A stretch of 64,000 bases of DNA from an uncultured Nitrospiraceae bacterium (GTDB lineage: Bacteria > Nitrospirota > Nitrospiria > Nitrospirales > Nitrospiraceae), in NCBI GenBank assembly GCA_963730935.1, contig CAVSTP010000004.1, positions 480,001 through 544,000 of the forward strand, in the 5' to 3' direction. A program made the position numbers and the translations under genes. Below the pieces are notes generated by a model. It was not told where the DNA came from and ran no database searches. It saw only the letters and a list, made by a program, of their open reading frames with translations. Shown here piece after piece: positions 44,559-61,328 of this stretch (position 1 is its first letter; every line of letters begins with the position of its first letter).

Positions 44559-44961
44559 TCGGCACGCGATCCGGCAAAGTACAGCGCCTCCTCTCAACAA
44601 GTGTTGAGCCGGACTATGGAGACGAAGAAGTGCATCTTAGCCCCGAATCGATTATCCGCCCTGACATTCCATTTCCCTATATTGATAAACGTCGCTTAAG
44701 CACGCCTGACGTGCAGACATAGTTAGGAGTCTTCAAGAAAGTCTCAACTGGCTCTCAACCAAGCTCGTAGCTTGTCCTGACAAAGTGGACAGGTAGCCTC
44801 TAAAATCGTTTCACTTCCTCGCTCCGGCACACAAGTCAAATCCCTCAAGATCACAAAGAAATAGCGGCGATGGGAGACTGCCTTGTACGAGCACCGGCAG
44901 GGTGAGCCAGTGCACCGTTAAATAGGATTCGCTATTGGCGGCGTTGCAGGTTCAAACGACG

Positions 44962-45010
44962 GTTGTGGAGCTGGCGAGAGGAATTGAACCTCCAACCTGT
45001 GGTTTACAAA
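44962..45010 (-). repeat. att site: copy of the tRNA-Thr 3' half
   Basis: 49 bp identical to 61250-61298. Confidence 0.92.
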
Positions 45011-45228
45011 CTCGCCTCAGATCAATCTGACACAACCCACGACGAGCTAACCAAAGGGAAAACTGAGGATTCGGAAAAACCATCCTCATGATGGATCGGG
45101 ATAGATTGGCCTGTGCTGGTAGCCGCGTGGTAGCAGAACTGTTTTCCGCAATGATACAGTCCCTCGCATGGTGAGGAAATGGAAGGCGTTGACGCATCTC
45201 GTCATCTCGAAACGTCCAGCGCGAAGCG

Positions 45229-46892: not shown

Positions 46893-46932
46893 GGCGACAC
46901 CTGCCTCAATGTGGGAGGAGCAGGGTCTCAGC

Positions 46933-47012
46933 TTCTATGCGGTGAGTCGCGGGAATTGTCTGGCGGGTTCAAGAAAAGTGCAAGAGGAAAAACGCGATTG
47001 GGAGAATATACG
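46933..47012 (-). promoter_or_regulatory. Conserved upstream region, copy 1 (TTGCAC-N17-GACAAT)
   Basis: About 80 bp homologous to 53229-53308. Confidence 0.6.
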
Positions 47013-49767: not shown

Positions 49768-51927
49768 ATGATAGACCAGCAATCAACACAATGGTATCAG
49801 AGTGCAATCGATCAACTGACGCGAATCGCGGCGGCGATTCATCGGCACCATGACCTCGATTTGAAGACAGTGTCGTCGCTTGCGTCGGATATTGTGGAGT
49901 CGCTTAGCCGGAGTGACCAGCTGGTAGTCGAAGCCCTCGCGGGATCTAGCGGGTCACAATTGATCACGAATCTGATCAATGTCGGAATCTTGGCGACGAA
50001 GGTGGGGATAGGGCTCGGGTATTACCCGATGGAGTTAGAACGGCTGGCCCTGGCTGGGCTGGTGCATGATATCGGCCTCCTTGCCTTCCCGCAATCACTG
50101 GTTACCAAAGCCGGTCGCCTGACACCTGAAGAGCGCATGCTCATCGAGCAACATCCCGAACTGGGCTATCAAGCGGTGCGGAAGCTCGGAACGACGCATG
50201 ACTGGCTGGCGGAGGTAGTCCGCCAGGCTCACGAACGGTGGAATGGGCAAGGCTACCCCAATAAACTCAAGGGTCGCCAGATCAACGAATTCGCTCAAAT
50301 CATCGCTGTCGTGGATGTCTTTGATGCACTGGTCAGTCCCCGTACCTATCGTCGCCGATTCCTTCCTCACGAGGCCGTGCGCGAGCTCGTGGCGGTCGAG
50401 AGAACGGCGTTTCCGCGGAAAGTCATCAAGGCGTTGGTCGAACAGCTCTCGGCCTATCCGATTGGAACCTCGGTCCGGCTGTCGACCGGTGAGCTGGGCA
50501 CAGTGATCCGTGTCAATACTCGCTTTCCACTCCGTCCGATGGTCTTGATCGGTGAATGCCCGACGGATGGCTCCGCAGCACGGCAAGTCGATCTGAGTAC
50601 GTCACCATGGGTGACGATCATTGAGACCGTCGAGCCTCCCGATGTCGCGCGTATATCATTTCCAATACGACCGCTGGCGCTCCCTGTCACGGAACATCCC
50701 TGCCGCTTTCCTGCCGTTCTGTCGCCAAGGAATCGGGCCGCTCTTGATGCAATCGCGAATGTGATTCAAGAGGTGGTGGAGTCAGTCGCGTCTGTCCGTC
50801 AAGGTGTCGACAGCCTTTCCGAAGGGGAGACGAGGTGGCCGCATCGACGCATGGCTGTTCAAGAGTTGATGAATGCCTCGTTTGAAAAAGAAGTCGTGGG
50901 GTTGTTTGCCCTGGAAGCACACGAATGGTTGGCGCAGATTCAGAGGGCGCTGAAGCTGCTGACTGAGGGGGACGATCAAGCCGTTCGACCAAAGCTCTAC
51001 GGTATCATTCTGCAGGGGATCACCAATCTCGCGAAGTCAGCGGCGACCGTTCAGCTATCGGCCATTGAACAGATGGCCATGAACCTCTTGCCGATTCTGC
51101 ATGAGGTCAGACGGCAGGAGCCGCGCCCAGCCGCGGCGGCGCTAAACTGGTTCCATGAAGGCTTAGTAGGCATCAGCACAGCCATTCACCGTCTGACCAA
51201 TGATCACGCGGAACAACCTATCGCGCAATTTCCTGACGGTGGGAACTCACCCATTGAGGCTCCATCCTCCCATTGCTTGTCGAACCGCCAACAGGTGGCC
51301 ACACCGCAGCCAGTCATTCAGTCATCAGAGGCGAGCGAGCCACCGCTTCTGAAAGCCTTACGTGAACTTCAGCAAGCTCGAGCAAGGTCTGTGCAGCCCA
51401 CCAGAGATGTCTTGGAAGCAGTCATCCTTAGGGCTGGACACGAGGCGGGAGATATAGGCGTATCTGTAATGAAACGCATTCTCAATGAGTTACATATACT
51501 TGATGAACAATTTCTTGAAGACGTCAACCGGCGGGTTCCGGTGATCATGCAAGCACTTCACAACTTACGAAGTCAGGAGAAAACCGATTCAGTGACCGCT
51601 TCTCAACTCGATCCAATCGTGTGCGAAATTGATGCACTTTACGATCTGGCGAATCGTGTCCAAGCCTCAATGATGGCCATGTTCCTCCACGGTCTTCGGT
51701 CGTTCCTACTCGATCTAGCGAATCGTGTCCGAGCCTCAATGATGACCATGTTCCTCGACGGTCTTCGGTCGTTCCTACTCGTGAGCGCCTACAGAAAGGA
51801 CTCGACGCTGCCTCAATGGCTTGAGATGGTCGAAGCACGAGTGCAGACCCTCATTCCAATGGCCGAACAGTGGGTCAATATTGGCCGGACCGAACGGGCA
51901 GACATCAGTGAAATTCTACGAGCCTAG
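49768..51927 (+). CDS. HD-GYP phosphodiesterase-like protein with C-terminal helical (Hpt-like) domains
   Basis: VHDIG, HERWNGQGYP, DVFDAL..R.YR; LFALEAHEWL..I. Confidence 0.85.
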   Translation: MIDQQSTQWYQSAIDQLTRIAAAIHRHHDLDLKTVSSLASDIVESLSRSDQLVVEALAGSSGSQLITNLINVGILATKVGIGLGYYPMELERLALAGLVHDIGLLAFPQSLVTKAGRLTPEERMLIEQHPELGYQAVRKLGTTHDWLAEVVRQAHERWNGQGYPNKLKGRQINEFAQIIAVVDVFDALVSPRTYRRRFLPHEAVRELVAVERTAFPRKVIKALVEQLSAYPIGTSVRLSTGELGTVIRVNTRFPLRPMVLIGECPTDGSAARQVDLSTSPWVTIIETVEPPDVARISFPIRPLALPVTEHPCRFPAVLSPRNRAALDAIANVIQEVVESVASVRQGVDSLSEGETRWPHRRMAVQELMNASFEKEVVGLFALEAHEWLAQIQRALKLLTEGDDQAVRPKLYGIILQGITNLAKSAATVQLSAIEQMAMNLLPILHEVRRQEPRPAAAALNWFHEGLVGISTAIHRLTNDHAEQPIAQFPDGGNSPIEAPSSHCLSNRQQVATPQPVIQSSEASEPPLLKALRELQQARARSVQPTRDVLEAVILRAGHEAGDIGVSVMKRILNELHILDEQFLEDVNRRVPVIMQALHNLRSQEKTDSVTASQLDPIVCEIDALYDLANRVQASMMAMFLHGLRSFLLDLANRVRASMMTMFLDGLRSFLLVSAYRKDSTLPQWLEMVEARVQTLIPMAEQWVNIGRTERADISEILRA
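51643..51780 (+). repeat. In-frame 69-bp tandem duplication
   Basis: DLANRVQASMMAMFLHGLRSFLL / DLANRVRASMMTMFLDGLRSFLL. Confidence 0.92.
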
Positions 51928-52128
51928 CCCGACGGACGATCCTTTCCTCCTTCCAACCCATCACCTCGGTTGCCATGGTACTAAGCAACCTGGTTCATTA
52001 GTTCGATGCCCCTCAGAACTTGTGGGGTGGCTGCCGATTGGGAACCAAGGCGCTGCAGATCGTCTGGACGGCTCAAGCACTGGATGTGGTAACAGAACGG
52101 TAGCAAACCCTGGAGCGGAATCGTCTAG

Positions 52129-52178
52129 GTTGTGGAGCTGGCGAGAGGAATTGAACCTCCAACCTGTGGTTTACAAAA
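52129..52178 (-). repeat. att site: second copy of the tRNA-Thr 3' half
   Basis: 50 bp identical to 61250-61299. Confidence 0.92.
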
Positions 52179-52407
52179 ACCAATCGATTCAAATCTCCCT
52201 GAGTGGAAGGGGATTGATGAACAAGGCAAACGCCATGATCAAAACGATGAATAGTGCATTGGCTTGTGACATTGAATTGCGCCCAGTGTGAACCTGTAAG
52301 TAGGCGACGGTTACATTTACGGTTACACTTTACTCAACTTGCGAGGCGCCCGGGCCCCAAGGCCAGAGCGCCGAGCACGCAGATGTGCATGGTACCTTGC
52401 CGAGAGA

Positions 52408-52468
52408 CCCACCCTTGGGAGGGGTGTCTGCGGTCACGCCGTAGGCCAGTCAGGTAAAGCGGCATACA
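52408..52468 (+). repeat. 62-bp element R1 (1-nt deletion)
   Basis: CCCACCCTTGGGA-GGGGTGTC N15 GGCCAGTCAGGTAAAG N4 ATACA. Confidence 0.88.
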
Positions 52469-52659
52469 TGGTCAGCTCGAAAGCCGCGTCGGCTCACCCC
52501 GGCGCCGGTGGATGGGTGCTCTGGCCTGGCCGCTCGTTCGCTAGTGTTAGGAAGGCCGCGCATCAAAAATACCGCCGGTCAACAAAACTGTCGCTATTGA
52601 CATGGCAATCATTGCATGGCGCCCTCCTCAGGCTGAGGTAGCTTTTCAGGGAGCTTTCT

Positions 52660-53115
52660 TTAGCGCTCCCTCGGAGGTCCAACTTTCATCGGCGCCACTG
52701 TCCATCCACATTGGCCACTGCACGGACCGTTCGCGCTTTTGGCACAGACGGCAACATCCGTGGGACCAGATGGGGTCATAAATCCAGTATTAGAGATACT
52801 TGGAACACAATTACCCGTCCCCTGGACGCACCCGCAACTGAGAAGCAATGAATCCCCGCCTCCCGCTTTCTGCCTTGCCATCATTTGATTGTTCGCTCCC
52901 TTTTCTAACACAAAACCCGGTGCGGCCCTGAGTTGATTGTCCTGCACGATGACCCCTTGGAGAGGGTCGCCTCGTTCCTGCACGTCACCGGTTGCTGGAG
53001 GTTGTTCTGTTGGAGAAGGCTTGTCTGCGGCATGAGTGAACGAGAGCCCGCCGGTGGCAAGCACCAGAGTGAAGAAACTCGATCGAAGCAATCGCGCTAG
53101 GGACAACAGATTCAT
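52660..53115 (-). CDS. Secreted protein with GDVQER motif and Cys-rich C-terminus
   Basis: AAAGGAG RBS; signal peptide; six Cys in the last 60 aa. Confidence 0.75.
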   Translation of the reverse strand: MNLLSLARLLRSSFFTLVLATGGLSFTHAADKPSPTEQPPATGDVQERGDPLQGVIVQDNQLRAAPGFVLEKGANNQMMARQKAGGGDSLLLSCGCVQGTGNCVPSISNTGFMTPSGPTDVAVCAKSANGPCSGQCGWTVAPMKVGPPRER

Positions 53116-53228
53116 TGGTAACTCCTTTCGGTTTCCTTGAGCACGGTTGTTCTGCATGGCGACAACAACCTATTAGGATAGCCAGTGCGTTGCTCACCGA
53201 CCTGGGACAAATCACATTTGTCCAAAGG

Positions 53229-53308
53229 TTCTATGGGGTGAGTCGCAGGATTGTCTGGCACGTTCAATAAAAGTGCAAGGGCGAAAACGTGGTGAGAGAA
53301 AATATTCG
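53229..53308 (-). promoter_or_regulatory. Conserved upstream region, copy 2
   Basis: Homologous to 46933-47012. Confidence 0.6.
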
Positions 53309-53390
53309 ATGGCCCGACAAGGGGCGAATTGCAGATTCACAAACTCTGGGCATGTCTATTCGAGATGGCAGCTGATGACAGCTACCCGAG

Positions 53391-53452
53391 GCCACCCTTG
53401 GGAAGGGGTGTCAGTCTGCATGACGGCTGCCAATCAGGTGAAGGCTGATACA
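53391..53452 (+). repeat. 62-bp element R2
   Basis: GCCACCCTTGGGAAGGGGTGTC N15 TGCCAATCAGGTGAAG N4 ATACA. Confidence 0.92.
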
Positions 53453-53478
53453 GGGCGAGGTGAAATGGGGAGCGAATT

Positions 53479-53907
53479 TTAGTTGCGAGGTTCTTCCATG
53501 CGAGTGCGGGGAACAGCAGCAGGAATTGCCTTGCGAATGACCTTATCCAGTTCATCGCCTGAGGTACGAGATTTCACCAAATACGCGAACGCGCCATTCT
53601 TGAGTGCGTGTTGGGGAAAGGTTTCAATATCTACACGGGTCAATATGATTACGGCTACTTCCGGGTGGTGAACACGGCGGACTAAATCTACGAGTACCTG
53701 GAAACCGGACGTGTCAGGCAAGTCCAGCTCTGAGACAACGCAATTGATCTGCATAGATTCGCAAAGGGACAATCCTGCCGCTCCAGTGTCAGCTTCGACG
53801 ATGAGATAATCCGGTGCTGAAGTGGTAAGGCGCTGGACATAGTATTGTCGGGCGTCCTTATAGGCATCGATGAAGAGAACGGTCGCAGAGGGGTAACGGA
53901 TTAGCAT
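53479..53907 (-). CDS. Stand-alone receiver domain, phosphoacceptor Asp replaced by Glu
   Basis: VLFID, CVVSELDLPDTSG, GAFAYLVK. Confidence 0.8.
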   Translation of the reverse strand: MLIRYPSATVLFIDAYKDARQYYVQRLTTSAPDYLIVEADTGAAGLSLCESMQINCVVSELDLPDTSGFQVLVDLVRRVHHPEVAVIILTRVDIETFPQHALKNGAFAYLVKSRTSGDELDKVIRKAIPAAVPRTRMEEPRN

Positions 53908-54150
53908 GAAGCGCCTTAGGGGTAAGACTCAACCGATCCTCGAATTCCCTGATAGAACAGCGGAGAGGTCGATTTTAGGAGTGCGTTGTCAGTGAAGCAA
54001 TAGGGCAGAGGGGTAATGAATTACGTGTATTTAATTATTTTGAGCCGATCAGACTGTCTTCCCGAGGCAGCGAACAACGGTCCTCTCACGGCTTCCTGAC
54101 AACCCGCGACGAAAACAGTGTCAATAGGAGCAACGTGCGTCGGATGGTGT

Positions 54151-54212
54151 GCCACCCTTGGGAAGGGGTGTCTACCATGTGGGCGACTGGCAGTCAGATA
54201 AAGACAGATACA
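54151..54212 (+). repeat. 62-bp element R3
   Basis: GCCACCCTTGGGAAGGGGTGTC N15 TGGCAGTCAGATAAAG N4 ATACA. Confidence 0.92.
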
Positions 54213-54296
54213 GGGCCGGAGAAAAACGCCGAAGATGAGTCAGCGGCAGGCAAAGAACCGATTGAAACCGATCGGACACTGTAGTTCTGCCATAGT

Positions 54297-54593
54297 TTAG
54301 CCACAGTCCCAGCGAGGTGAATTGGCAAAACTCTGGGTCAGGAAACCCGGCGGGGCAACCCGCCGCAAGGATAGAATAGGTGTCTTCTCTGCTGGCTCAC
54401 TCAGACTCGTGCGCGTATTTGTTTCGGTCGCTTTGCTGCCCTCCAATCCAGCAGTCGCTAATGCCAATGGGCTTGAGATCCAGCCACCTGGCTCTGCGGG
54501 CAAGCTATCTCGTCCTGCGACGGTAAAGCTGCTGTAAATGCCGTCGGCCGATGCCGCGCACCGCTGGCTCATCATCGACGCCTCAATGAGCAT
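54297..54593 (-). CDS. Hypothetical protein; possibly the C-terminus of the upstream lipoprotein
   Basis: TAATG overlap right after a G5 run; no separate signal peptide. Confidence 0.45.
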   Translation of the reverse strand: MLIEASMMSQRCAASADGIYSSFTVAGRDSLPAEPGGWISSPLALATAGLEGSKATETNTRTSLSEPAEKTPILSLRRVAPPGFLTQSFANSPRWDCG

Positions 54594-55438
54594 TATTCCC
54601 CCACTGGAGGTTCCGTTGAAATATCGCTAGCAGTTTGTGTCCTCACATTAAAGTCGACACGCTCACCGGCCTTGAGCGTTCGCGTGATGCTGAGGACGCC
54701 CTGTTGTGTGCCCGGTTGTTGGGTAAACGAATGCTTTGCCTCCTCGCCAAAAATGAGCTGTGCTGAGGCAAAGGCGTGAAAGTTGGCGACTTGCAAAAAC
54801 TCACTTTGCGCAAGGCCGTAGGGAATGCTGATGGTCAACGTGCCTCCTTCGTCGCCTGCTTGAACCCAGCCGCTACGCTCCACCCAAGCGTCGGCGCTAG
54901 TCTTATTTTCTGGCCCTGGCGCTAGCTCAACCGCGACCTGAAAGAGTGAGGGAGAGGACGAGGCGACAGTTGCGCCTGCTCGCACAGTCCGCTCCTCCCA
55001 AAAGCCATCGAAGAACGCATCTTCGACACGTTGACCGTTCGTGATTGTTATGGCCGCTTGTTGCTGTGTTTGAGGCACAAGGGTTACCTGAATGCCTTCG
55101 AGCTTGAGGTTGGCGATATCCAGAAAGGCGCTGCCGTTATACTTGCCCGGTACGGCTGGCGCTGGCGCAGGCCCCGATGTTATTGGCTTCGCAGGCGTAT
55201 TAGATGGACCCGACGGCTTTGGCGCAGGCGTAGGCGTTTGCCCTGAATCAGGCGCTTGTGTAGGGGGAGACGTCGAAGGTGTAGGTGTCGTCGTTGTCTC
55301 ACTCGGCGCTTGTGTCGGCGCTGGAGTGGACTGTGTAGGGGCTGGCGCATTCGTTGTCACGGCTTGCGGCGCGTCACCCCCACCCGAGCAGCCAGCAAAA
55401 AGCAAGACCATTAATGCTATGGGTAAATATGTTTTCAT
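54593..55438 (-). CDS. Lipoprotein with Pro/Thr-rich stalk
   Basis: GAGGGGAG RBS; lipobox FAGC; PT-rich linker. Confidence 0.75.
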   Translation of the reverse strand: MKTYLPIALMVLLFAGCSGGGDAPQAVTTNAPAPTQSTPAPTQAPSETTTTPTPSTSPPTQAPDSGQTPTPAPKPSGPSNTPAKPITSGPAPAPAVPGKYNGSAFLDIANLKLEGIQVTLVPQTQQQAAITITNGQRVEDAFFDGFWEERTVRAGATVASSSPSLFQVAVELAPGPENKTSADAWVERSGWVQAGDEGGTLTISIPYGLAQSEFLQVANFHAFASAQLIFGEEAKHSFTQQPGTQQGVLSITRTLKAGERVDFNVRTQTASDISTEPPVGE

Positions 55439-55660
55439 GGCTCCCCTCGTGTAAACGCGGGGGCTGTTTTGAGTTCATTGGTAAGGGTGCCGCATCGAGT
55501 GAGGATGCTAGTCCTATCCATAAGAAGCGACAATGAACGGAAGTCACTAGAGAAACTATATGAGGAGGTGTTCCTACATACGGCAACAACAGCTCAGGAA
55601 GTATTTCACCTGGGATGGCGATGGCGACAACTATGAGCAATTGCGTGGCTCACCGTAGGG

Positions 55661-55722
55661 GCCACCCTTGGGAAGGGGTGTCGGCTGCGAGGACGTTGGC
55701 CAGTCAGGTAAAGCTTAATACA
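55661..55722 (+). repeat. 62-bp element R4
   Basis: GCCACCCTTGGGAAGGGGTGTC N15 GGCCAGTCAGGTAAAG N4 ATACA. Confidence 0.92.
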
Positions 55723-55746
55723 TTAGCTGAGGGAAGAAGGTTCAAA

Positions 55747-55780
55747 ACGAGCCGACCCGCCACGCGCTGCGAAATGGTTC
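55747..55780 (+). repeat. 34-bp direct repeat, left copy
   Basis: ACGAG-N4-CCCGCCACGCGCTGCGAAATGGTTC. Confidence 0.85.
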
Positions 55781-55804
55781 AAGACGCTTCTGACCCGGGA
55801 AATG

Positions 55805-56188
55805 TTAACGAGTCTTGCACCAGTACAGACACTGAGCAGTGGTGGTGCCGGGCGCATTCATGCAATTCTGAATACACATTTGATCAGGCCCTTTCCCAGA
55901 TACTCTGGGCGGACCCTGAGAGGATCGGGTTTGCACGTCAAGATCGTCAGGCTTTGGAAGCAGCGCTCCTATCTTCAATGACTGAAGTTCATCAGTACTC
56001 TCGATCTTGATCTGATCGCTTTGGCCTGTCTGATTGTTGCGGATCGTCACCAACCCTTTGTCTTTATCCACGTTTATGATGGTGGCAGTGTCGGCAGCCC
56101 ATGTGTGGTGGGTGATGAAGAGAGAGAAGAGAACTATAGCCGTCACTCGATAAGACATTGAGGACGACAAGCGTAAATACCTTGGCAT
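55805..56188 (-). CDS. Secreted protein with DVQTR motif and C-terminal CxxxC...CxxxC
   Basis: AAGGAG RBS; signal peptide; CIQNC...CLYWC. Confidence 0.72.
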   Translation of the reverse strand: MPRYLRLSSSMSYRVTAIVLFSLFITHHTWAADTATIINVDKDKGLVTIRNNQTGQSDQIKIESTDELQSLKIGALLPKPDDLDVQTRSSQGPPRVSGKGPDQMCIQNCMNAPGTTTAQCLYWCKTR

Positions 56189-56369
56189 GGATCTCTCTCC
56201 TTTTTGACCTAAGGCGAATCGGCAGGAGACTAGAAGCTTCACCTAAGAAAGTAAAGCCCTGCAGTGCCGGGAACGATCGAAAAATCAAGACGGTCACGTT
56301 TTCACATGGGCGGGGTCTATCGCGGTGTGAGGTGCGATGAGCGGTGATGGAGAGGCGGCGAGGCGAACC

Positions 56370-56403
56370 ACGAGTCATCCCGCCACGCGCTGCGAAATGG
56401 TTC
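56370..56403 (+). repeat. 34-bp direct repeat, right copy
   Basis: 25 bp identical to 55756-55780. Confidence 0.85.
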
Positions 56404-56437
56404 CTGAAAGATAATGCCGAGACTCACGGAAGGAGGG

Positions 56438-56499
56438 GCCACCCTTGGGAAGGGGTGTCGTACGCGTGACGGCCTGCCAGCCAGGTGAGGCCGAATCCA
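56438..56499 (+). repeat. 62-bp element R5
   Basis: GCCACCCTTGGGAAGGGGTGTC N15 TGCCAGCCAGGTGAGG N4 ATCCA. Confidence 0.9.
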
Positions 56500-56694
56500 G
56501 GCTGGAGCAAAGGATTTCCGGGGGTCGGAAGCGACTGAGGCAGGATTCTGATGATGTCGAAGGTGGTAGGGAAATCTATGGCCGGTTTGTGGGACCTTAC
56601 CCGAATTGATCTAGTGACTTCCCGGAGCCATACTTCACCCGTCTTTTTCTTATCATTCCGCCATTCTTAATAACTTTTGAAAGGGTGGCGGACT

Positions 56695-56871
56695 GTGTTT
56701 ACTCTCCGACCAGAATTAATCACCTTCACTCGTGCGTGTGAAAACCTACTATCGGATGGAGTGCCGCTGACTGAGGATGAGCGCAACCTGCTCGAATACT
56801 ACGTCAACGATGTGGTGCGCGAATTCCTCGCAGACAAGTCCGTTGTCAGCAACCCTCCGACTGGAGCCTAG
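56695..56871 (+). CDS. Small helical hypothetical protein
   Basis: F.RACE.LL...LTEDE..LLEYY; natural-looking composition. Confidence 0.5.
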   Translation: MFTLRPELITFTRACENLLSDGVPLTEDERNLLEYYVNDVVREFLADKSVVSNPPTGA

Positions 56872-57103
56872 GAGAAGTTATTTGCGTGGAGTTTTGTCCT
56901 TCGCCAGCCATGGAATCCATGACGTGTCGGGCGAGAATTCCTTATTTTGGCGAGTGATTTGAGGCCGGTATGGGTTAGTTTTCCATCCTCTCCCTCTTGA
57001 TGCCACCGCTCTTTGTATCGCGTTCTTCTTATCCACGGAAGCCCCCGCTTTTTCGCGGTCAGTTAGAAGAGCCGAAGTTAGAGAATTCGCTGTTCTCAGT
57101 TCC

Positions 57104-57271
57104 CTATGCGGCCTTGTACTTTGCTGGTCGCCACTCCTGCTGAGAGGAGAGGTAGACACCGCACACCGTACAAACTACCTCTGCGGTGAACAAGCCGCCT
57201 TTACGTTCTAACTCAAAAATGCAGACGTGTTCACTATACTGAGGTTGATTACTCCGAGGATTGTTCAACAT
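57104..57271 (-). CDS. Small putative zinc-binding protein
   Basis: H.C...CTVCG; shares its leader with the adjacent receiver gene. Confidence 0.5.
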   Translation of the reverse strand: MLNNPRSNQPQYSEHVCIFELERKGGLFTAEVVCTVCGVYLSSQQEWRPAKYKAA

Positions 57272-57378
57272 AGGGCGACCGCCTTTCTTGTTCACAAAGA
57301 CGGCGGTCGGGACTTCCAAGAGGCCGTCGGCAGTTGTGTAGGTAGGTTGTCAGAGCCTAGGCTCTTTAGAATGCTGAG

Positions 57379-57828
57379 TCATGTTGCTTCAGTCATGGAA
57401 CCAAGACCAGCGCTGATTTCTGGCCGGTCTATGGCCTTCCCATCGATGCCTGCCACCGCTCTTTGTATCGCGCCGTACAATTCCACCCCCACATTCTCTT
57501 TCGATACGACGTCTGAAGCTCCTGCTTTTTGCATCAACCTGTAATCCTTCAGCTCGACCGAGAATCCAACCACGGCTATTTGCGGATACTGTGCCTTGAT
57601 GAAGCGGGTCGCTGCGATTCCGTCCATTCTGGACATGTTGATACCCATCACGACGACTGTCGGCTGAACCTTTGCTATACACACAAGAACCTCCGAACCA
57701 TCACTCGCTTCACCAACCACTTCGATACTGGGATACACTTCCAAGGTACAGCGCAGCCCTTGCCGTACCATGGCGTGGTCATCTACCACTAGGACACGAA
57801 TCGATCTGGTTTGGGATGGGTAAGACAA
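57379..57828 (-). CDS. Stand-alone NarL-type receiver, degenerate (Asp to Gly)
   Basis: VLVVDDHAMVRQGL, VVGEA, VVVMGINM. Confidence 0.75.
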   Translation of the reverse strand: MSYPSQTRSIRVLVVDDHAMVRQGLRCTLEVYPSIEVVGEASDGSEVLVCIAKVQPTVVVMGINMSRMDGIAATRFIKAQYPQIAVVGFSVELKDYRLMQKAGASDVVSKENVGVELYGAIQRAVAGIDGKAIDRPEISAGLGSMTEAT

Positions 57829-58164
57829 TGACGACCGCCTTTCACAGTATGTCGGCGGTCGGACCTTCCAAGAGGCCGTCGGCAGTTGCGTGTGTGGGGA
57901 GAATGTATTAAGAGCGTGCGCCCTTCTTGCTAGGATGTCAAGGGGTCATCTTCACCACTCGTGGTGATCTTGGAACTTTGAGACAGGCGCCTCGCTTGCT
58001 CGTGACACTCTTCGCACATATGGTCAACGTCGAAGACGACTGAACGCAGACCGTGGTTGTCCTCTCGTTGACACTTTGAGCAACCGGTGCAGTGGCAGGA
58101 ATCGACGGTTCTCATTACGTGGGGATAGTCATCGACGACGATAGCCTCGTAGTCGCTCCACCAG

Positions 58165-58575
58165 TCAACTAGCAAGTCTATAGCGTCTTTGCACTGTCGA
58201 AATGGCCTTGAGGATGGATGGTGCGAGAAGGTCTCCGCTGCCCACAGTCTTTTGCAATGCGGCTTGTGCGCCGTTCTTGATTGCCAGGTCCAGCAGGAAT
58301 GGATTGGGAAGCCTTGTCAGGATGATCACGGCGATCTCGGGATGATAGAAACGGGGAACGAGCTTTGCCAATACCTCAAACCCGGACATGTCCGGCAGGT
58401 CCAGCTCAAGTACCACACAATCAATCGGTTGTCTTGCGCAGATGTCTAGCCCAGATCGGCCAGTTGCCGCTGTGATCACATCATAGTTTGTTGACGATAC
58501 ACGGAGGCGGTATGCGTAGTATTCACGATATTGGATATCTGGGTCGACGAGGAGAATGGTAGTGGCGTCAGACAT
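58165..58575 (-). CDS. Stand-alone receiver domain, phosphoacceptor Asp replaced by Glu
   Basis: ILLVD, CVVLELDLPDMSG; paralog of 53479-53907. Confidence 0.8.
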   Translation of the reverse strand: MSDATTILLVDPDIQYREYYAYRLRVSSTNYDVITAATGRSGLDICARQPIDCVVLELDLPDMSGFEVLAKLVPRFYHPEIAVIILTRLPNPFLLDLAIKNGAQAALQKTVGSGDLLAPSILKAISTVQRRYRLAS

Positions 58576-58737
58576 GACAACCACACTGTTCCGGCAAGTG
58601 GCGTGGATCGTGGCTTTGCCGGGACCCTTAGGTGAAGCGTATTTAGATTATGCCCCTAAGAAGCAGGTGTCAATTAGCAGAGAAGTGGCGCCAGGAGCCA
58701 TTTTGCGGCGTATCAAAGTGGTTGATACAATATTTTC

Positions 58738-59330
58738 ATGGTCATTCCACAGCCGATGTCATTGGTTCAACAGCCTGAGCCCTTCGATGACTGGGACTGG
58801 ATCTATGAAATTAAGGACGATGGCTTTCGCGCATTAGCAGTCATTGAGCAGGGACAGTGCCGATTCTTTTCCAGGAAAAAACATAAGCAAACCGGCCATC
58901 AAGACCTTCGAGCGGCATTGGTGAAAGAGGTGAATGCGGAGACGGCCATCCTGGATGGCGAGCTCTTGGTCACCGACCACATGGGAAGGACAATCTTCGC
59001 TGACATGATGCAACGGCGCCATCCCGCCCGATACTTCGCGTTCGATCTACTCTCGCTCAATGGGGAGGACTTGACGAAACTGCCATTGCTGGCACGAAAG
59101 GAAAATTGAAACGGATCCTGCCGTCGCGGTCAGCCCACGTCCTCTATGTCGACCATTCGCGCGGAAATGGGACCGCGCTTTACCGTTTAGCCTGTCAGTT
59201 GGACCTCGAAGGTATGAGGACAATATAAACGTGCGGCATTGAATCAAAATTAAGAATACGGCTTACAGTCAAAAGGAAGGACGGGGAGACTTGTTCAAAC
59301 GAGCACGTCAGATTGCGGGTAGACGATACA
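58738..59330 (+). pseudogene. ATP-dependent DNA ligase (LigD-type adenylation domain) pseudogene
   Basis: WIYEIKDDGFRA motif I, ILDGE, FAFDLL; frameshift near 59100; then LDLEG and a stop-containing IKIKN segment. Confidence 0.8.
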
Positions 59331-59362
59331 GTCAGGGTTGGACAGGATTGGGGTCGTAGCCC

Positions 59363-59818
59363 TCAATTAGCTTCTCTAGCCTCTCGTTCGGCTTGCTGGA
59401 GGGCAAGATCTGTCTTCCTCGATGTCGTTGGAGGAGACGAACTGGTCGTCGTTGACGGTGCCACCGTCAATATCACAGGAATGGCTACGCTCCCTTCTTT
59501 ATCGACCGTGACTGTGACCGTGGCCCAATATGTCCCTGGTGCTAACCCTGCTACGCTCACCGCGACACGTGCAGAGTCCTTAATGATCTCTGTCTGAGGA
59601 GTTACCGAGACCCACGTCGCATTATCTGATGCGGTCCAGGTGGTTGGTTTATTATTCGTTTTGGAAACGCTGAGGAACTGGCTAGGTGGATTTATTCCGC
59701 CTTGAACGGCTTGAAAGCTCAGGGATGTGGGCCTCGCCGTTAAGGCACATGCGTTGAGACAAGTTAAGAGACCGATGCCCAGGGTCAACATAATGCCCAC
59801 CACCGAGTGAACGGACAT
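59363..59818 (-). CDS. Secreted BACON/Ig-like protein, probably truncated
   Basis: PTSLSF..WTASDNATWVSVTP..LAPGTY. Confidence 0.65.
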   Translation of the reverse strand: MSVHSVVGIMLTLGIGLLTCLNACALTARPTSLSFQAVQGGINPPSQFLSVSKTNNKPTTWTASDNATWVSVTPQTEIIKDSARVAVSVAGLAPGTYWATVTVTVDKEGSVAIPVILTVAPSTTTSSSPPTTSRKTDLALQQAEREAREAN

Positions 59819-59992
59819 AGGTCGAGACCTCACCTCTTGATGGCTTGAATCCATACACACATCGCTTCTTACGGTCGACCACGTTGCTGACTTATCGGCA
59901 TCCTAAATATGACTATATGTGCAAAGCCCATTCAAATGCCCCTGGCAGAATTCCTAGAAAGAGGACGCGCCGAAAGAAGGGGATGAGCAGTT

Positions 59993-60030
59993 AAAAAGGC
60001 CCGACTCCGGTGGGCGCGAAGTCGAGCCTT
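59993..60030 (-). terminator. Rho-independent terminator
   Basis: AGGCTCGACT-loop-AGTCGGGCCT followed by a T run, downstream of 60066-60743. Confidence 0.65.
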
Positions 60031-60065
60031 TGCTATCGGACTCGGAGAATCCCGAGATACATGGA

Positions 60066-60743
60066 TTAGTGGAGAGTGTCGAGGCTTTTTATGTTGTGCG
60101 ACTGGACCTGCGTCGTAAGCTCATCAACGCAGCCGGCAAATTTTTCGATGGCGTCATCCGTCCGATGACGTTTGATGGAGCCGTTCGAAGTCGCGGCGGA
60201 TGTTGTGACGTGTAAATCTAACGCGCTTAGAACATCCATACCGTCCTTAGACCTCTTGAACCCTATGGTGACGGGCTGGCCTTCTGTTAGGTCTTTTAAA
60301 ACAGCCATTGAACCTTCATCGAGCTCGTATACGAAACTTTTTGCCCCGGCCAGGTCCGAGGCGGTACTGTGAAACTTGCTTTTAGCTGTCGTGCCATGAG
60401 GTGTCTCTATATACGCATAGAAGGGCGCCTCTGGCTTTGCTGTCTTATTCTGGGTGTCGATTGTTCCGATCTTTAAGGACAATCCCATTACGTTTTGGTT
60501 CGCGTTTGTGAAGTAGGCGATGTTCCCTACGATTGTGATTAAGGCGCCGTTTCTGTACACAAAATCCTGCTCAGTCAGCGTATACACCAGCGTACATCCA
60601 CCTAGGACCTCTGCCGCTTGCATCGGATAAAATTCAACGGAAATCGTGCCTGTGAATATAGATACATCTCGCGCTGTAGCCTGCTCCGAAAAGGCAGGTA
60701 TGCTATTCAGCATCAAAAGAACTATTAGCAAGGTCTGTTTCAT
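60066..60743 (-). CDS. Secreted hypothetical protein
   Basis: Signal peptide; AT-rich codons. Confidence 0.65.
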   Translation of the reverse strand: MKQTLLIVLLMLNSIPAFSEQATARDVSIFTGTISVEFYPMQAAEVLGGCTLVYTLTEQDFVYRNGALITIVGNIAYFTNANQNVMGLSLKIGTIDTQNKTAKPEAPFYAYIETPHGTTAKSKFHSTASDLAGAKSFVYELDEGSMAVLKDLTEGQPVTIGFKRSKDGMDVLSALDLHVTTSAATSNGSIKRHRTDDAIEKFAGCVDELTTQVQSHNIKSLDTLH

Positions 60744-61054
60744 CAGGTTTTCTCTGCTGTGCGCTCCTTCGCCGCCTGTTTACAGATCCGCTCGATGTCC
60801 CGAACCCTCCCCGGATCCGGTGGCGGCCCGCAGTCCACCATACCCTTGAACGGTTCTATCGTCGCATCGGACATGCCGAGCCGACGGTCATAATGGCTGA
60901 TCATGGCGTGGATGCACCAATTGCGCGCATCCTCTAGCGTTTCGAAGATTGGCCCATCGAGCGGCTGGCGCATGCCGAACATGCGCCCTTCGCGGGCGCG
61001 GACGACGGGACGGTAACCAGTGATGAACTTCTGATGTCGGCCTTTGGGCAGCAT
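60743..61054 (-). CDS. Hypothetical protein
   Basis: AGGGGG RBS; TGATG coupling to the next gene. Confidence 0.5.
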   Translation of the reverse strand: MLPKGRHQKFITGYRPVVRAREGRMFGMRQPLDGPIFETLEDARNWCIHAMISHYDRRLGMSDATIEPFKGMVDCGPPPDPGRVRDIERICKQAAKERTAEKT

Positions 61055-61253
61055 GACTACCCCCTGGTTTTCCCCTATACAATCACCTAATGGGTCTCTA
61101 GGAGCCCGATCCGCTCTCATCGCAGCCCCCACTGGCCACGCGACTGCTCACGAACAGGTCTTGGAGAATCTTCCGAGGATGGGGCCGAGGCGTCAATGCT
61201 ACCTTTTACGCTACCTTTTAGCTTTTATGGGCCCTCTGAAAGCACATAAGTTG

Positions 61254-61328
61254 TGGAGCTGGCGAGAGGAATTGAACCTCCAACCTGTGGTTTACAAAAC
61301 CACTGCTCTGCCATTGAGCTACGCCAGC
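61254..61328 (-). tRNA. tRNA-Thr(TGT)
   Basis: GCTGGCG/CGCCAGC acceptor; GTGGT-TTTGTAA-ACCAC anticodon arm; GGTTCAA; CCA. Confidence 0.97.

What the first reader, a model, noticed from the sequence alone, without database searches (positions are those of the whole stretch)
52408..56499. Cassette-like gene array punctuated by a 62-bp fixed-geometry element (not attC, not CRISPR)
Seen: five same-orientation copies (52408, 53391, 54151, 55661, 56438) of GCCACCCTTGGGAAGGGGTGTC, identical in four. Each is followed by exactly 15 variable nt, then (T/G)GCCAGTCAGGTAAAG-like, 4 variable nt and ATACA. The 0.76-1.5 kb intervals each hold one unrelated minus-strand gene unit: a Cys-rich secreted protein, a receiver, a PT-rich lipoprotein and a Cys-rich secreted protein. 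The starts lie about 220-280 bp from the next element. I saw no copy outside this island. Inference: these are recombination or capture sites of an integron-like cassette-stockpiling system whose recombinase acts in trans or was lost. They lack the attC GTTRRRY/RYYYAAC ends and the dif consensus.
Basis: partly seen in the sequence, partly recalled or inferred. Interest (0 to 1): 0.9.

Follow-up and report, generated by a model that had tools for sequence, protein, structure and literature searches.

The report
Island-end DNA site heading stacked modules
The repeat is a conserved site that normally sits just inside one end of small mobile DNA islands inserted at tRNA genes in Nitrospira-family bacteria; here five copies from different islands are stacked with cargo genes between them, which may show how these islands travel and swap genes.

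Summary
The five copies are real, but they are not unique: this genome has 18, all within 5 kb of a tRNA or tRNA half (background 14%). Of 39 distinct copies from relatives and metagenomes, 18 lie behind a tRNA half (ten tRNAs), 17 of them at 191-241 bp. So the element is the conserved core of a ~130-bp polar site at the distal end of tRNA-integrated mini-islands; copy 1 is such an end copy of a tRNA-Thr island (empty site in one relative). Copies 2-5 lack attachment arms and are as close or closer to copies elsewhere than to each other, so they were stacked from different islands. In one relative, three element-plus-gene modules are shared between islands with other arms or tRNA targets, identity starting at the element. 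No integron integrase, attC boxes or supported module-skipping joints were found. Best reading: a helper-recognised transfer signal (phage packaging site more likely than oriT; terS-bearing satellites use the same tRNA sites) that also serves as crossover point. Its function is inferred; homology to satellite post-terS DNA was tested and not found. The scan had not noted this before. A second repeat nearby forms a larger shuffled array.

The parts
52126..52178 (-). Duplicated 3' half of tRNA-Thr(TGT): distal attachment site of the island
52179..52400 (+). Attachment arm with a GGTTACA direct-repeat pair (52309-52327); aligns with the arms of 4 islands in relatives
   Evidence: alignment with L065, L075, L153, L156; arm function inferred
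52408..52468 (+). Element copy 1: canonical island-end copy, 228 bp inside the tRNA half
52660..53157 (-). Cargo ORF, 165 aa, Cys-containing, no family; paralogue 50% identical at G000:C4:411 kb
53226..53304 (-). Upstream segment 81% identical to window 46930-47010 in the neighbouring island (likely the gene's own promoter region; inferred)
53391..53452 (+). Element copy 2 (internal, no arm or tRNA half within 450 bp)
53479..53907 (-). Stand-alone receiver domain (PF00072), paralogues elsewhere in the genome
54151..54212 (+). Element copy 3 (internal); right part 34/40 like G000:C3:25.5 kb, 24/40 like the best array copy
54246..54306 (.). Relic segment also found ~190 bp behind an element copy in G383 (L127, L153) and in L024; looks like an integrase arm (inferred)
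54325..54591 (-). Remnant 81% identical to the 3' part of a TPS-domain gene in G015
54593..55438 (-). Pro/Thr-rich lipoprotein-like ORF, 281 aa, no family
55661..55722 (+). Element copy 4 (internal)
   Evidence: spanned by contig 27 of run X4 with 1 difference
55747..55780 (+). Tail of a second repeat family (REP2), which follows several element copies
55805..56242 (-). Cargo ORF, up to 145 aa, Cys-containing C-terminus, no family
56296..56410 (+). Full copy of REP2, the repeat that forms a large one-strand array at G000:C4:798-894 kb
56438..56499 (+). Element copy 5 (internal)
   Evidence: spanned by contig 29 of run X4 with 1 difference
61254..61328 (-). tRNA-Thr(TGT), proximal end of the 9.1-kb island; no integrase inside this island
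44959..45011 (-). Second tRNA-Thr 3' half, end of the next (older) island, which has no element copy

Best explanation
The element is the core of a ~130-bp polar cis-site carried about 200-240 bp inside the distal end of small tRNA-integrating islands of the Nitrospira family (shown). These islands have a tyrosine integrase, or borrow one, but no replication or transfer genes (shown for the islands read), so the site is most likely the DNA signal by which a helper moves them, a phage or satellite packaging (pac/cos-type) site being my first choice (inferred). Because it is the stretch that otherwise unrelated islands share, crossovers there swap or stack element-plus-cargo modules (swap shown by sequence; homologous recombination as the enzyme is inferred). 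The window's array is one tRNA-Thr island with its own end copy plus four modules stacked from other island lineages whose att arms are gone.
For: 18 of 18 copies within 5 kb of a tRNA or tRNA half, background 14%; the 12 strong copies all point towards the tRNA (for the three on C3 the intact tRNA is inferred to lie off the contig end). 18 of 39 copies have a tRNA half within 450 bp upstream, 17 at 191-241 bp, ten tRNAs; 21 of 39 have a half or an arm (the arm models were built from some of these loci). Bounded islands of 2-12 kb with one terminal copy, two with an integrase next to the restored tRNA (L092, L084), others without (L086, L156). Empty tRNA-Thr site in G005; inserts of 3.8, 4.9, 11.6 kb in G031, G025, G383 against 19.4 kb here, none with the four array genes. 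In G388, 3 pairs share element plus cargo behind other arms or tRNAs: 97.4% over 1293 bp from -14; near-identical from the 22-mer to +975 with diverged arms; 89% from -3 to +641. G383 has element-gene-tRNA-Leu half-arm-element inside a Thr island. Window copies: best match of the right part outside the array 36, 29, 34, 30, 32 of 40, inside 30, 25, 24, 30, 25. For packaging: primase-terS-integrase satellites sit at the same tRNA-Thr with the same half-tRNA layout; terS homologues in 15 of 371 genomes; by eye 12 of 17 have a G-run, GGTACC-like motif and A/T tract after terS, as the long element does; other islands hold related or similar-looking sites in the same slot; no relaxase of 3 families in 5 of 5 element-bearing genomes.
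Against: A profile of the 12 post-terS blocks did not detect the element (2 of 24 copies scored at all). Pairwise test: slot sequences mean z +1.0 (reverse strand +0.4, control -0.5), but G000 copies -0.1. No element in viral contigs (6 patterns; the 1 match lies in a coding region of an unrelated contig), phages or plasmids, so no helper carrying it was found. No homologue of the satellite terS in G000. Non-replicating 2-12 kb circles are awkward substrates for headful packaging (own knowledge). 10 of 12 strong G000 copies are internal, and internal copies are not more decayed in the 22-mer (0.7 against 1.6 edits, consensus biased to G000), which a pure relic model does not predict. The three module swaps come from one draft genome with 7% contamination. 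None of the window's own modules was found behind the element elsewhere.
Confidence: 0.5

Rival explanations
1. One reading: the 22-mer is the crossover core of a dedicated site-specific recombinase acting in trans, and the intervals are cassettes that it excises and stockpiles.
For: The 22-mer reads as two 7-bp imperfect inverted repeats around a 7-8 bp spacer, as tyrosine-recombinase cores do (sequence; core geometry recalled). It is exact in 14 of 40 copies while flanks diverge. Shared modules begin at its left edge. Internal copies stay intact. A true shuffled array with a related tail exists in this genus.
Against: Mostly single and terminal in relatives; right borders of the 3 shared modules are not element copies; no integron integrase; the full-length tyrosine recombinases are XerC/D-like or lie beside tRNAs; no supported skip joint in 4 runs, and two junctions are kept in another population.
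Confidence: 0.2
2. The site is an origin-of-transfer mimic: the islands are relaxase-less integrative elements (iOriT/MGI type), and relaxase-mediated integration into a resident copy made the tandem array.
For: Dyad plus second block plus A/T tracts, fixed polarity, near one end, in non-replicating islands of variable size fits rolling-circle transfer of an excised circle. iOriTs are common (10.64898/2026.01.13.699239, abstract and section 7). A likeness of the 22-mer's end to F-type nic regions is recalled, untested.
Against: No TrwC, MobA/MobL or MOB-P relaxase in 5 of 5 genomes (other relaxase families not searched); no plasmid match; that paper's integrative elements are nearly all over 4 kb, some here are 2 kb.
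Confidence: 0.15
3. A regulator-binding site upstream of co-regulated genes, or a REP/TIR-type repeat spread by a Y1 (RAYT/TIRYT) transposase.
For: Three gene starts lie 223-244 bp from the next copy. G000 has one Y1 transposase with GGGGACAG-type inverted repeats amid the REP2 array, and some copies carry the REP2 tail (TIR motif in PMC3733652 passages).
Against: Terminal copies have an att arm, not a gene, upstream; the spacing fails at other copies. 18 of 18 copies are in tRNA-linked accessory DNA with one polarity. Y1 genes occur in 1 of 5 REP2-array genomes (76-92% complete) and 5 of 5 comparison genomes. No Rfam match.
Confidence: 0.07
4. Functionless debris: ends of dead islands piled up by nested integration and deletion.
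For: The islands are patchworks of gene remnants, foreign tRNA halves and integrase pieces, as described for tycheposon islands (10.1101/2020.12.28.424599 passages).
Against: Two blocks and their spacing are kept while the 15-16 nt between them are scrambled in G000-type copies, which points to selection, at least in the donors.
Confidence: 0.08

Closest known systems
Tycheposons and their tRNA-anchored islands (Hackl et al., 10.1101/2020.12.28.424599; passages seen)
   Same: tRNA-specific tyrosine integrases, partial tRNA copies between stacked elements, cargo-carrying and terS-bearing PICI-like forms at the same sites, islands grown from remnants.
   Different: Other phylum; hallmark-gene kinship not tested; no conserved terminal cis-site or site-headed modules appear in the passages read.
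Hitcher elements that need only a DNA motif: PICMI, cos/pac mimics (PMC11389934 passages); Pseudomonas I55-type islands (10.1101/2024.08.29.610337 abstract, discussion)
   Same: Integrase plus att plus cargo, no transfer genes, conserved end sequence, movement by a helper.
   Different: Helper unknown here; islands as small as 2 kb, some without integrase; the motif is multiplied inside one island.
iOriTs / mobilizable genomic islands (10.64898/2026.01.13.699239 abstract, section 7)
   Same: att-bounded islands with one conserved non-coding site and no relaxase.
   Different: No matching relaxase-bearing helper found; oriT nature untested.
Integrons (IntI, attI, attC)
   Same: Same-strand repeats about one gene apart, variable gene content.
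   Different: No IntI, no attC boxes, no covarying hairpin; genes keep 200+ bp upstream regions; site is normally single and terminal.
REP/TIR repeats of RAYT/TIRYT transposases (PMC3733652 passages)
   Same: Short intergenic repeat with a dyad; a TIR-flanked Y1 gene is in the genome.
   Different: Low copy, confined to tRNA islands, one polarity, no co-occurrence with Y1 shown.

Membership tests
Integron | Integron integrase IntI | tested here: not met
   TIGR02249 best 86 bits, cut-off 265
Integron | attC with RYYYAAC/GTTRRRY ends and folded bottom strand | tested here: not met
   0 of 5 copies have either box; stem pairing not above permutation, p 0.5 and 0.09; no both-sides changes in the predicted hairpin
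Integron-like cassette system (function) | Gene content varies and modules are bounded by the site | tested here: inconclusive
   Content varies; left borders at the site in 3 pairs, right borders not; no skip joints
tRNA-integrated genomic island | tRNA plus duplicated tRNA half bounding accessory DNA; empty site in a relative | tested here: met
   empty site in G005
tRNA-integrated genomic island | Tyrosine integrase beside the tRNA | tested here: not met
   None in the window's island; present in sister islands L092, L084
PICI-type phage satellite | Integrase, primase/replicase, terS or capsid gene | tested here: not met
   Not in element-bearing islands read; met by neighbouring elements such as L157
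Packaging-site hitcher (PICMI, cos/pac mimic) | Motif shared with a helper phage or satellite | tested here: inconclusive
   No profile match to post-terS DNA, weak pairwise signal for slot sequences only, no viral match
Packaging-site hitcher (PICMI, cos/pac mimic) | DNA packaged in virions from the site | not testable with these tools
   needs virion sequencing
iOriT / MGI | oriT like that of a relaxase-bearing helper | tested here: inconclusive
   0 of 5 genomes with PF08751, PF03389, PF03432; no plasmid match; other MOB families not searched
REP/TIR repeat | Flanks or co-occurs with a RAYT/TIRYT gene; dispersed copies | tested here: not met
   The Y1 gene is flanked by other repeats; copies confined to tRNA islands
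dif/pdif module | XerC/XerD 11-6-11 site | not tested
   No Nitrospira dif was determined; XerC/D-like genes exist
CRISPR / known ncRNA | Short regular spacers, or an Rfam family | tested here: not met
   Spacing 0.76-1.5 kb; only a tRNA in Rfam at E<=1 for 43000-64000

The most novel reading that the evidence does not exclude
In this soil Nitrospira lineage an island-end transfer signal has been released from its att arm and now works as the joint of an integrase-free, attC-free cassette system: site-headed one-gene modules are cut or delivered at the site's left edge and stacked in polar arrays, the same process that builds the much larger shuffled REP2 arrays (shared tail) in many species of the genus.
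Probability: 0.2. Interest if true: 0.85.

Novelty: new variant of a known kind. Interest (0 to 1): 0.52.

Why it matters
How integrase-only tRNA islands move between cells is an open question, and the motifs that helpers recognise are mostly unknown (PMC11389934 passages). Here a defined, polar, position-fixed candidate motif is shared by islands of ten tRNA targets in a nitrifier family, occurs in variants, and coincides with cargo-swap breakpoints. That makes both the transfer route and the way islands exchange cargo testable. If the multiplied internal copies are active, it is a new route to cassette-like arrays.

Tried and rejected
One search used a mis-spaced pattern and is void; one search is the corrected search (1 of 60 relatives). 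RNA structure: only the short hairpin of the 22-mer, no covariation; Rfam blank. Coding remnant: the reverse strand can be read as a peptide but has a stop in copy 1 and no codon-like variation (by eye). Promoter/terminator scan of 52100-56800: 1 and 5 sites, at shuffle level, none on the element. Viral contigs: 6 element patterns and 1 slot-variant pattern gave 1 coding match; terS alignment found no viral locus and no phage record; blastn of phages and plasmids gave only chance-level hits or none. Metagenome scan: 8 matches, 6 true copies, 2 (L021, L027) inside unrelated coding DNA. G007 has the 22-mer without the second block and was left out of the copy counts; from the 41 records one truncated duplicate and one misaligned weak copy were dropped to give 39; the 40 still hold the misaligned one. 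Laid contigs: the joints 52468->56382 and 55714->56379 have sides under 30 and extra letters like other loci, so they show element-plus-tail units elsewhere, not deletions; low cover over 52.2-54.2 kb in X1 and X4 has no bridging contig and proves nothing; X1 may be the source sample. ESM Atlas look-up of the recurrent 115-aa island protein gave unnamed clusters under 0.9. G001 is rearranged at this tRNA and G009's insert was not spanned, so neither is counted as a size. Y1 transposase as driver of REP2 arrays: not supported. Literature searches that listed no description of this element: (listings only; held library only). Earlier-finding look-ups were blank.
Full report
Observation. The 22-mer is exact in four, with no match in 100 shuffles. 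Four minus-strand ORFs lie between them; one is a receiver domain, the other three have no Pfam, PHROG or NCBIfam family. There are no attC boxes at any of the 5 copies and no Rfam family. But the element is not confined to this island: a sequence model finds 18 copies in the genome, 12 strong and 6 weak. The organism is a Nitrospira by the title of a same-genus record that carries the element.

Setting. The array lies in a 9.1-kb island between tRNA-Thr(TGT) at 61254-61328 and a copy of its 3' half at 52126-52178; a second half at 44959-45011 ends an older island. G005 has the empty site, the tRNA 30 bp from the core regulator gene; G031, G025 and G383 have 3.8, 4.9 and 11.6 kb there, against 19.4 kb in the window, and none of the 8 relatives' loci compared holds the four array genes apart from a receiver paralogue. 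All 18 genomic copies lie within 5 kb of a tRNA or tRNA half, against 14% of random positions, and so do 8 of 8 clusters; the 12 strong copies all point towards the tRNA gene (for contig C3 the intact tRNA is inferred).

Relatives show what the element is. It is rare: 4 of 150 other family genomes by model, 8 of 370 by the 22-mer with two mismatches, four more in genus g26 by BLAST of the long form, and 6 true copies among 8 metagenome matches. In g26 it is mostly single and is part of a conserved island end: tRNA half, an arm of about 200 bp with a short direct-repeat pair, a GGTACC-type motif, the element, then A/T tracts. Of 39 distinct copies, 18 have a tRNA half within 450 bp upstream, 17 of them at 191-241 bp, for ten different tRNAs; 21 have a half or an arm, 15 are internal, 3 are too short to tell. 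Whole islands could be read: 9.2 kb at tRNA-Gly and 2.5 kb at tRNA-Arg with an integrase next to the restored tRNA, 11.6 and 2 kb at tRNA-Thr without one. Window copy 1 has this layout, and its arm aligns with those of four islands in relatives. The arm alone is far commoner (some part matches in 53 of 85 g26 genomes), and the slot behind it often holds other sequences, some distantly related to the element.

The array. Copies 2-5 have no arm or tRNA half. They are not duplicates of each other: the 40 bases after the 22-mer match copies outside the array as well as or better than any inside (36, 29, 34, 30, 32 against 30, 25, 24, 30, 25). The intervals are patchwork, with an arm-like relic, a piece of a TPS-domain gene and copies of a second repeat. 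In G388 three pairs of islands share the element plus the following cargo behind different arms or tRNA targets: 97.4% over 1293 bp starting 14 bp before the 22-mer with unrelated arms; near identity from the 22-mer to +975 with diverged arms at tRNA-Arg and tRNA-Thr; 89% from -3 to +641. Their right borders are not element copies. In G383 a Thr island holds element, one gene, a tRNA-Leu half, arm, element, which is what a small circle gives when it crosses over at a resident element. So modules do change places at the element. That needs no special enzyme, since the element is the homology that unrelated islands share; in the first pair the element itself is less alike than the cargo behind it, as a crossover inside the site would leave it. 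The genome has no integron integrase. Contigs of four soil or sediment runs cover parts of the island at about 99% identity; two contigs of X4 span copies 4 and 5 with one difference each, and no supported joint skips a module, so the array is real and these two junctions are stable.

Likely function. A position-fixed, polar, conserved site in islands without transfer genes is what a helper-recognised signal looks like; hitchers that depend on such a motif alone are known (PMC11389934, passages; 10.1101/2024.08.29.610337, abstract and discussion). For packaging: satellites with primase, terS and integrase use the same tRNA-Thr with the same half-tRNA layout; terS homologues occur in 15 of 371 genomes; by eye 12 of 17 are followed by a G-run, a GGTACC-like motif and an A/T tract, the make-up of the long element; that such blocks are packaging sites is recalled, not shown. 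Against: a profile of these blocks misses the element, pairwise similarity is weak for slot sequences (mean z +1.0, control -0.5) and nil for G000 copies, and no virus, phage or plasmid record carries it. For an oriT: it suits small non-replicating circles and iOriTs are common (10.64898/2026.01.13.699239, abstract and section 7), but three relaxase families are missing from 5 of 5 element-bearing genomes. I put the island-end identity and stacking at about 0.8, a transfer signal at about 0.65, packaging above oriT, and the whole best explanation at 0.5. Unexplained: 10 of 12 strong G000 copies are internal and keep an intact 22-mer, and several carry the tail of REP2.

Second repeat. REP2 (56296-56410) forms a one-strand array of 24 heads and 29 tails, most at C4:798-894 kb, and matches in 21 of 32 same-genus genomes, in clusters. 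Behind fixed anchor genes, one-gene modules at about 80-97% identity recur in other order; 28 of 56 shared segments begin within 120 bp of a repeat against 16% background. A Y1 transposase with TIRs of the kind in PMC3733652 (passages) lies in the G000 array but does not co-occur with arrays elsewhere.

Verdict. It works like the end site of a hitcher island of the tycheposon/PICMI/iOriT kind (10.1101/2020.12.28.424599, passages), is not an integron, and is not shown to be a member of any of those families. Eight literature searches listed no description of it, within the held library; bioRxiv supplements were not seen and could list such motifs. New variant of a known kind; interest 0.52.

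Noticed in passing
window 56296-56410; G000:C4:798-894 kb; L208-L218: REP2: a ~115-bp repeat in large one-strand arrays about one gene apart in many same-genus genomes, with shuffled one-gene modules behind fixed B12-radical-SAM anchor genes; full copies lie near the anchor, tails only further away; no enzyme identified. Strong candidate for a new cassette-like system.
   Followed up: partly
L157:6525-19650 (G155), L093/L086 (G388), L120, L166-L182: PICI-like satellites (primase, terS, integrase) at tRNA-Thr(TGT) that displace the 5' half of the tRNA; most have a G-rich plus A/T-tract block after terS.
   Followed up: partly
L092, L084, L087, L088, L052; G000:C4:424.6k, 429.1k, 742.5k, 321.4k: Many islands leave the 5' half of the tRNA at the distal end and restore the gene at the integrase end; 5'- and 3'-type islands stack on both sides of one tRNA.
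   Followed up: partly
G000:C2:627.7k, 656.7k; C3:877.1k; C4:265.7k, 972.0k, 988.4k: Halves of foreign tRNAs inside islands of other specificity; 36 partial tRNA matches in the genome.
   Followed up: no
window 56677-61132: The rest of the island is a patchwork of segments repeated in other islands: receivers, a 64-aa family, a 115-aa family near tRNA ends with weak viral look-alikes, an ATP-dependent ligase fragment. A Ku gene lies near the C1 copy (L006:12411-13265).
   Followed up: partly
L129, L132, L134, L138, L146; L131, L136, L145; L135, L079; G000:C2:645.2k: At least three other site families occupy the same slot behind the att arm; one weakly matches the element.
   Followed up: partly
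window 51642-51779: 69-bp tandem duplication (94%) in the 3' part of the HD-domain gene of the neighbouring island.
   Followed up: no
G000:C4:791255-795499; L207:14517-19858; L211:10290-14359: The B12-binding radical SAM anchor genes appear frameshifted or split in all three assemblies read; assembly error or real is open.
   Followed up: no
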